Positions 22,932 through 22,960 of a DNA stretch of 64,000 nucleotides are shown here, piece by piece (the first letter of the stretch is position 1; each line of letters starts with the position of its first letter). Source of the DNA: Escherichia coli (GTDB lineage: Bacteria > Pseudomonadota > Gammaproteobacteria > Enterobacterales > Enterobacteriaceae); assembly GCF_045037415.1 (NCBI RefSeq), contig NZ_CP173438.1; one strand, written 5' to 3'. Under the pieces are notes generated by a model that made no database searches, was not told the origin of the DNA, and was given only the letters and a program-made list of their open reading frames with translations. A program made the position numbers and the translations under genes.

Positions 22932-22960
22932 GCTCAAGTTAGTATAAAAAAGCAGGCTTC
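22932..22960. other. Phage lambda attachment site attB (unoccupied)
   Basis: Minus-strand CTGCTTTTTTATACTAACTTGAGCG with the 15-bp core at 22939-22953, in the ybhB-ybhC intergenic region. Confidence 0.85.

What the first reader, a model, noticed from the sequence alone, without database searches (positions are those of the whole stretch)
22932..22960. Intact, unoccupied phage lambda attB between ybhB and ybhC
The classic attB core and arms (CTGCTTTTTTATACTAACTTGAGCG, minus strand) are present and uninterrupted, with no prophage DNA between gal and bio. This chromosome is therefore not a lambda lysogen at this site and remains a competent integration target.
Basis: established knowledge. Interest (0 to 1): 0.3.

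Follow-up and report, generated by a model that had tools for sequence, protein, structure and literature searches.

The report
Empty phage lambda attachment site (attB)

Summary
The 15-bp lambda core GCTTTTTTATACTAA is present once, exactly, on the minus strand at 22939-22953. The quoted 25-mer lies at 22931-22955, one base left of the reported start. None is expected by chance. The 75 bp around the core are identical to the K-12 MG1655 attB. The core is identical to the recombination core annotated in the phage lambda genome.

The window is E. coli chromosome, colinear with lambda-free K-12 from ybhG to mngB. It has only REP-sized indels between bioA and galE. There is no Int or Xis homologue, so the site is empty.

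In natural lysogens (J53 with a 48.5-kb lambda, O157:H7, MSHS 133) the prophage junctions fall exactly at this core. The bacterial half of each junction matches the window, except for one base just outside the 21-bp site in O157:H7.

Of 5,424 complete E. coli genomes with this locus, 3,491 have it contiguous. About 1,930 have it split at the core. Either state is therefore common.

Competence for integration is inferred from sequence identity. It was not tested functionally.

Already known; low interest.

The parts
22935..22955 (-). Minimal 21-bp attB (B-O-B'): CTGCTTTTTTATACTAACTTG
   Evidence: Exact match within the 25-mer found. It is the same 21-bp string used as a functional attB in PMC2831311.
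22939..22953 (-). 15-bp common core GCTTTTTTATACTAA shared by attB and attP
   Evidence: One search gives a unique exact match. Searches show identity to lambda NC_001416.1 27724-27738 (misc_recomb) and to K-12 807328-807342.
22942..22948 (-). 7-bp overlap (strand-exchange) region TTTATAC
   Evidence: The position is read directly from the sequence. Its role as the overlap region is established knowledge of lambda Int recombination; a 7-bp overlap is mentioned in PMC2831311.
22947..22955 (-). Core-type Int binding site B (CTGCTTTTT)
   Evidence: Sequence read. The assignment rests on established knowledge (core-type consensus CAACTTNNT); binding was not tested here.
22935..22943 (+). Core-type Int binding site B' (CAAGTTAGT)
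   Evidence: Sequence read. [quoted passage not shown]
22372..22848 (+). ybhB (PEBP-family 'kinase inhibitor'), the flanking gene on the bio side
   Evidence: ORF. RefSeq annotation of an identical relative. Pfam PBP match at E 1.4e-41. 96.4% identical to K-12 ybhB.
23000..24283 (+). ybhC (pectinesterase-family lipoprotein), the flanking gene on the gal side; its start codon is 46 bp from the core
   Evidence: ORF. Annotation. Pfam Pectinesterase match at E 5.8e-14. 97.6% identical to K-12.
22855..22881 (+). Hairpin with an 11-bp stem just after the ybhB stop codon; not part of attB and of untested function
   Evidence: fold. It is not followed by a T run and was not called as a terminator.
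21024..22313 (+). bioA, the bio-side marker
   Evidence: Full-length match to K-12 bioA at 96.6%; annotation.
38135..42393 (+). galETKM, the gal-side marker
   Evidence: Full-length ungapped matches to K-12 galE, galT, galK and galM at 97.5-98.1%.

Best explanation
The window carries the canonical, unoccupied primary attachment site (attB, BOB') of phage lambda and its relatives. It sits at its normal chromosomal position in the ybhB-ybhC spacer between the bio and gal operons of an E. coli chromosome.

Mechanism, from established knowledge: lambda Int is bound through its N-terminal domain to arm-type sites in a supercoiled attP intasome assembled with host IHF. Int captures the naked 21-bp attB through the two inverted core-type sites B and B'. 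It then exchanges strands across the identical 7-bp overlap TTTATAC. This inserts the phage genome and produces the hybrid sites attL (next to ybhC) and attR (next to ybhB).

Shown here: the sequence, its position, the emptiness of the site, and the fact that natural prophages in other E. coli genomes are joined to the chromosome exactly at this core. Inferred: that this particular copy would recombine if offered attP, Int and IHF.
For: Sequence:
- The core and the 25-mer match exactly and uniquely, with a chance expectation of 0 for the 25-mer.
- The core equals the annotated lambda recombination core.
- The 75 bp around it are identical to K-12 MG1655 attB.
- The 21-bp string is the one used experimentally as attB (PMC2831311).

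Position:
- The site is between ybhB and ybhC, as the literature states for lambda attB (PMC3467070; PMC9580842).

Emptiness:
- The window is colinear with K-12 from 830433 to 767782, with no insertion between bioA and galE.
- There is no Int or Xis homologue.

Use of the site in nature:
- In J53 two core copies lie 48,503 bp apart. The hybrid junctions are B'-core-P on the ybhB side and P'-core-B on the ybhC side, and the bacterial halves are identical to the window.
- O157:H7 and MSHS 133 have int-xis abutting ybhC with the same attL. In O157:H7 the B side differs from the window by one base just outside the 21-bp site.
- About 1,930 of 5,424 complete E. coli genomes are split at query position 289, which is window 22935. 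The remaining 3,491 are contiguous.
- Forty-three phage records carry a lambda-type attP, including HK97, HK630, HK629, HK106 and 2B8.
Against: Nothing contradicts the identification. The limits are as follows.
- No functional assay was possible.
- The host factor IHF, phage immunity and other prophages lie outside the window.
- A precise past excision would leave the same sequence, so 'never occupied' cannot be distinguished from 'cured'.
- The scan of species-representative genomes for the 21-mer returned no Escherichia record. I could not explain this directly; the representative E. coli genome may have the site occupied. nevertheless shows thousands of E. coli genomes with the contiguous locus.
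Confidence: 0.97

Rival explanations
1. The match is a chance occurrence of an AT-rich 15- to 25-mer and has nothing to do with lambda.
For: With 2 mismatches allowed, 11 of 100 shuffles of the window gave at least one hit to the 15-mer. The exact 21-mer also turns up in unrelated genomes, Ferroplasma acidarmanus and a Bacillales MAG, with unrelated flanks.
Against: The match here is exact, not 2-mismatch. The 25-mer has zero expectation. The 75 bp around the core are identical to K-12 attB and sit in the syntenic ybhB-ybhC spacer. Real prophages are joined at exactly this sequence.
Confidence: 0.005
2. The site is a hybrid attL or attR left by a degraded or deleted prophage, not a true attB.
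For: Cryptic lambdoid remnants at this locus are common; in O157:H7 the int gene is frameshifted.
Against: Both flanks of the core are bacterial. On one side the sequence is CTTGAGCG (B'), not GTTGGCA (P'). On the other it is CCTG (B), not TCAG (P). Direct comparison with lambda attP and with J53 attL/attR is shown. There is no phage gene between ybhB and ybhC, which are only 151 bp apart.
Confidence: 0.005
3. The sequence is a true attB, but its conservation is maintained mainly by a host function of the spacer, for example ybhC promoter or 5'-leader elements. Occupancy would then have a host phenotype.
For: The whole 151-bp spacer is 100% identical to K-12, while the flanking genes are 96.4-97.6% identical. 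The core lies only 46 bp upstream of the ybhC start codon, so integration replaces everything upstream of that point.
Against: The consensus scan found no sigma-70-like promoter in the spacer. Zero differences in 151 bp is only a modest deviation, with about 5 expected at 3% divergence. About 36% of genomes tolerate an insertion here. This reading adds to the main explanation and does not replace it.
Confidence: 0.15

Closest known systems
Phage lambda attB (BOB') of E. coli K-12, between ybhC and ybhB at about 17 min (NC_000913.3 807328-807342)
   Same: The 15-bp core, the 21-bp minimal site and at least 30 bp on each side are identical. The whole 151-bp spacer is identical. Flanking genes and gene order from gal to bio are the same.
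   Different: Nothing differs at the site. The surrounding genes are about 3% diverged because the window comes from a non-K-12 lineage; its best matches include ST131-type genomes. The ybhC-ybhJ spacer is about 92 bp shorter than in K-12.
Phage lambda attP (POP'), NC_001416.1 around 27724-27738
   Same: The 15-bp core is identical, including the 7-bp overlap.
   Different: Sequence outside the core is unrelated. The window has no P or P' arms carrying arm-type Int, IHF, Xis or Fis sites, and no adjacent int-xis genes.
attL/attR of resident lambdoid prophages at ybhC/ybhB (lambda in J53; the cryptic prophage of O157:H7)
   Same: The core is the same and the bacterial half-sites match, apart from one base just outside the 21-bp site in O157:H7.
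   Different: Those are hybrid sites flanking 48.5 kb of phage DNA in J53, or a prophage with a frameshifted int in O157:H7. Here the two bacterial halves are contiguous.

Membership tests
Lambda attB (bacterial attachment site for lambda-type tyrosine integrases) | 15-bp common core identical to that of attP | tested here: met
   Exact match at 22939-22953 (-). It is identical to lambda 27724-27738.
Lambda attB (bacterial attachment site for lambda-type tyrosine integrases) | 7-bp overlap region TTTATAC identical between the partner sites | tested here: met
   Window 22942-22948 (-) reads TTTATAC, the same as in lambda attP.
Lambda attB (bacterial attachment site for lambda-type tyrosine integrases) | Two inverted core-type Int sites B and B' flanking the overlap; complete 21-bp minimal site | tested here: met
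   CTGCTTTTTTATACTAACTTG is exact at 22935-22955 (-). It matches the 21-bp attB used experimentally in PMC2831311. Int binding itself was not tested.
Lambda attB (bacterial attachment site for lambda-type tyrosine integrases) | Chromosomal position in the ybhB-ybhC spacer between gal and bio | tested here: met
   literature.
Lambda attB (bacterial attachment site for lambda-type tyrosine integrases) | Both flanks bacterial (BOB'), with no phage arm and no adjacent int/xis, so the site is unoccupied | tested here: met
   Flank comparison with attP, attL and attR. tblastn with Int and Xis found nothing. Colinear with lambda-free K-12.
Lambda attB (bacterial attachment site for lambda-type tyrosine integrases) | Recombines with attP in the presence of Int and IHF | not testable with these tools
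   Indirect support only. Natural lysogens have junctions at exactly this core, with bacterial halves matching the window.

The most novel reading that the evidence does not exclude
The perfectly conserved 151-bp ybhB-ybhC spacer, including attB, may also carry the control region of ybhC. If so, the roughly one-third of E. coli genomes with a prophage here would have altered ybhC expression, and selection on the host function would help preserve the phage's target.
Probability: 0.12. Interest if true: 0.2.

Novelty: already known. Interest (0 to 1): 0.04.

Why it matters
It matters little beyond annotation. The result tells a user of this strain that the standard lambda or CRIM-type integration site is available, and that no lambdoid prophage sits at the gal-bio locus. 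The species-wide count puts the finding in context: about 64% of complete E. coli genomes have the locus contiguous and about 36% have it split at the core. An empty site is the commoner of two common states.

Tried and rejected
(1) I scanned 100,044 species-representative genomes for the exact 21-bp attB to learn its taxonomic spread. The scan returned only Ferroplasma acidarmanus Fer1 (three copies) and one Bacillales MAG. Their flanks are unrelated to E. coli. No Escherichia record was returned, so the scan says nothing useful about distribution among enterobacteria. The likely reason is that the representative E. coli genome has the site occupied, but I could not check this.

(2) A consensus promoter and terminator scan of 22300-23300 found nothing in the spacer. 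No claim about a ybhC promoter can be made.

(3) tblastn with lambda Int and Xis against the whole window gave only noise.

(4) I considered and rejected the chance-match and attL/attR-remnant readings, as set out under the rival explanations.

(5) I briefly examined the Ferroplasma repeat. It is an exact 29-nt repeat, and two of the three copies lie upstream of DUF234/ATPase paralogue genes. I judged it a coincidental resemblance.

Full report
**Observation.** Reading the window at 22700-23200 shows, on the plus strand...cgctcaagTTAGTATAAAAAAGCaggcttcaacgg.... Its reverse complement is CCGTTGAAGCCTGCTTTTTTATACTAACTTGAGCG.
- A pattern search finds the 15-bp lambda core GCTTTTTTATACTAA exactly once in the 64 kb, at 22939-22953 on the minus strand. 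No further site appears with up to 2 mismatches.
It had no match in any of 100 shuffles, even with 3 mismatches allowed.
- The reported interval 22932-22960 is therefore correct to within one base on the left and five on the right.

I fetched K-12 MG1655 (NC_000913.3) and phage lambda (NC_001416.1).
- The lambda record annotates its recombination core (misc_recomb) at 27724-27738. That sequence is GCTTTTTTATACTAA, identical to the window.
- The window's core plus 30 bp on each side is identical, base for base, to K-12 807328-807342 +/-30.
- Within +/-200 bp the only differences from K-12 fall inside the ybhB and ybhC coding sequences. The entire 151-bp spacer 22849-22999 is identical.
- Outside the core, the window and attP are unrelated apart from the few bases known to be shared by the core-type sites.
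- The 21-bp string CTGCTTTTTTATACTAACTTG (22935-22955, minus strand) is the one cloned and used as a functional attB in PMC2831311.

**Context.** The window is E. coli chromosome.
- A 3-kb query around the site is 100% identical to many complete genomes, annotated bioA - ybhB - ybhC - ybhJ.
- The whole window aligns in reverse orientation to K-12 from 830433 (ybhG side) down to 767782 (mngB) at about 97% identity.
- bioA maps to 21024-22313, ybhB to 22372-22848, ybhC to 23000-24283 and galETKM to 38135-42393. All are full-length and ungapped.
- The distance from bioA to galE is 15.8 kb, against 15.9 kb in lambda-free K-12. The one notable indel, about 92 bp, is in the REP-bearing ybhC-ybhJ spacer.
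- tblastn with lambda Int and Xis finds nothing in the window (best E values 1.0 and 0.13).
- The claim 'no prophage DNA between gal and bio' is therefore shown.

**What an occupied site looks like.** A 600-bp query centred on the core matches 5,424 of 5,426 complete E. coli genomes.
- In 3,491 genomes the locus is contiguous. In the rest it is split, with the ybhC-side piece starting at query position 289, which is window 22935. That is the core plus the three bases that B' and P' share.
- I looked at three split genomes: J53-p133, an O157:H7 strain and MSHS 133. In each, an excisionase gene and a tyrosine integrase gene (frameshifted in O157:H7) abut ybhC.
- In each, the junction reads P' arm - core - B flank. 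In J53 and MSHS 133 the B flank is identical to the window; in O157:H7 it differs by one base just outside the 21-bp site.
- In J53 I also fetched the ybhB side. It reads B' flank - core - P arm, and the two core copies are 48,503 bp apart, the size of lambda.
- The window is thus the exact unrecombined parent (B'OB on the plus strand) of these natural attR and attL sites.
- The literature places lambda attB between ybhC and ybhB (PMC3467070). It also lists ybhC/ybhB as one of the island-rich integration loci of Escherichia (PMC9580842).
- Forty-three phage records carry a lambda-type attP, among them HK97, HK630, HK629, HK106, 2B8 and O276. Several phages could therefore use this site.

**Mechanism.** This rests on established knowledge and was not tested here.
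- attB is a simple site. Two inverted 9-bp core-type Int-binding sites flank the 7-bp overlap TTTATAC (22942-22948). They are B (CTGCTTTTT, 22947-22955, minus strand) and B' (CAAGTTAGT, 22935-22943, plus strand).
- An attP intasome (Int plus IHF on supercoiled DNA) captures attB.
- Int makes staggered cuts at the edges of the overlap and exchanges strands through a Holliday junction.
- Identity of the overlap between the partner sites is required, and it is met here.
- The step from 'identical sequence' to 'competent target' is an inference. It is strongly supported by the natural lysogens above, but it depends on factors outside the window, such as IHF, immunity and receptor.

**Rival readings.**
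- A chance match is excluded by exactness, synteny and the lysogen junctions.
- A hybrid attL or attR remnant is excluded because both flanks are the bacterial ones.
- A past precise excision cannot be told apart from never having been occupied, and it makes no practical difference.
- The spacer may also serve ybhC expression. It is 100% conserved against K-12 and the core is 46 bp from the ybhC start codon. The consensus scan found no promoter there, and a third of genomes tolerate an insertion. I give this about 0.12-0.15.

**Verdict.** This is the classical lambda attB in its unoccupied state, already known in every respect, so interest is very low.

**Dead ends and incidental observations.**
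- A scan of species-representative genomes for the 21-mer gave no Escherichia hit. It gave only coincidental-looking matches in Ferroplasma and a Bacillales MAG.
- Other incidental observations are listed separately.

Noticed in passing
window 58588-61181: About 2.6 kb between cydA and mngB has no counterpart in K-12, where some 0.5 kb lies instead. It encodes a 397-aa protein with an apparent signal-peptide-like N-terminus (read by eye from the translation) and C-terminal TPR repeats, at 59780-60973 on the minus strand. The full segment is present in 1,104 of 5,426 complete E. coli genomes, including ST131, NC101 and APEC O2:K1 strains. Other genomes carry it in diverged or partial form.
   Followed up: partly
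window 61171-63804 (-): mngB is only 88.6% identical to K-12 over 2.8 kb, whereas the rest of the window is about 97% identical. This is a locally divergent allele next to the variable segment described above.
   Followed up: no
window 24284-24423 and about 14721-14724: There are REP-sized length differences from K-12. The ybhC-ybhJ spacer is 140 bp here against 233 bp in K-12. About 150 bp present in K-12 between uvrB and ybhK (yvcK) is absent here. A repeated element in the 3-kb query, presumably the REP-type repeat of the ybhC-ybhJ spacer, would explain the many extra BLAST places per genome; with the 600-bp query that excludes this spacer the median fell from 22 places to 1.
   Followed up: partly
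window 22849-22999: The whole ybhB-ybhC spacer is 100% identical to K-12, although the flanking genes are 96.4-97.6% identical. A hairpin with an 11-bp stem at 22855-22881 follows the ybhB stop codon but has no T tract after it.
   Followed up: partly
L012 (NZ_CP146595.1), corresponding to window about 22876-22885: A close relative, strain A1.S1.18, is 100% identical in the flanks. It has an IS1A inserted in the same spacer, 54 bp from the core, and its attB is intact.
   Followed up: yes
L009 1952-1980 and 4391-4419; L010 4724-4744 (Ferroplasma acidarmanus Fer1, NC_021592.1): The exact 21-bp lambda attB string occurs three times in this archaeon. In L009 it lies inside an exact 29-nt repeat, GGGGTCAAGTTAGTATAAAAAAGCAGGCA, upstream of DUF234/ATPase paralogues; the L010 copy shares the same immediate flanks. 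The wider flanks are otherwise unrelated. One further copy is in a Bacillales MAG (L008 3185-3205). This is probably coincidence in AT-rich DNA, but it is unexplained. No Escherichia record was returned by that scan.
   Followed up: partly
phage record MW057783.1 ('Campylobacter phage CJLB-4', 48,361 bp): This record carries a 261-bp stretch 100% identical to lambda attP, at the lambda-like coordinate 27484-27744. It looks like lambda itself, which suggests a mislabelled or contaminant record.
   Followed up: no
window 13379-13523 (-), 50023-50161 (-), 48393-49096 (-): Expected RNA features are present. There is a Moco riboswitch upstream of moaA, the CpoB/ybgF thermometer, and a cluster of seven tRNA genes, five Lys(UUU) and two Val(UAC). 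The gene count matches K-12, with some spacing differences.
   Followed up: yes
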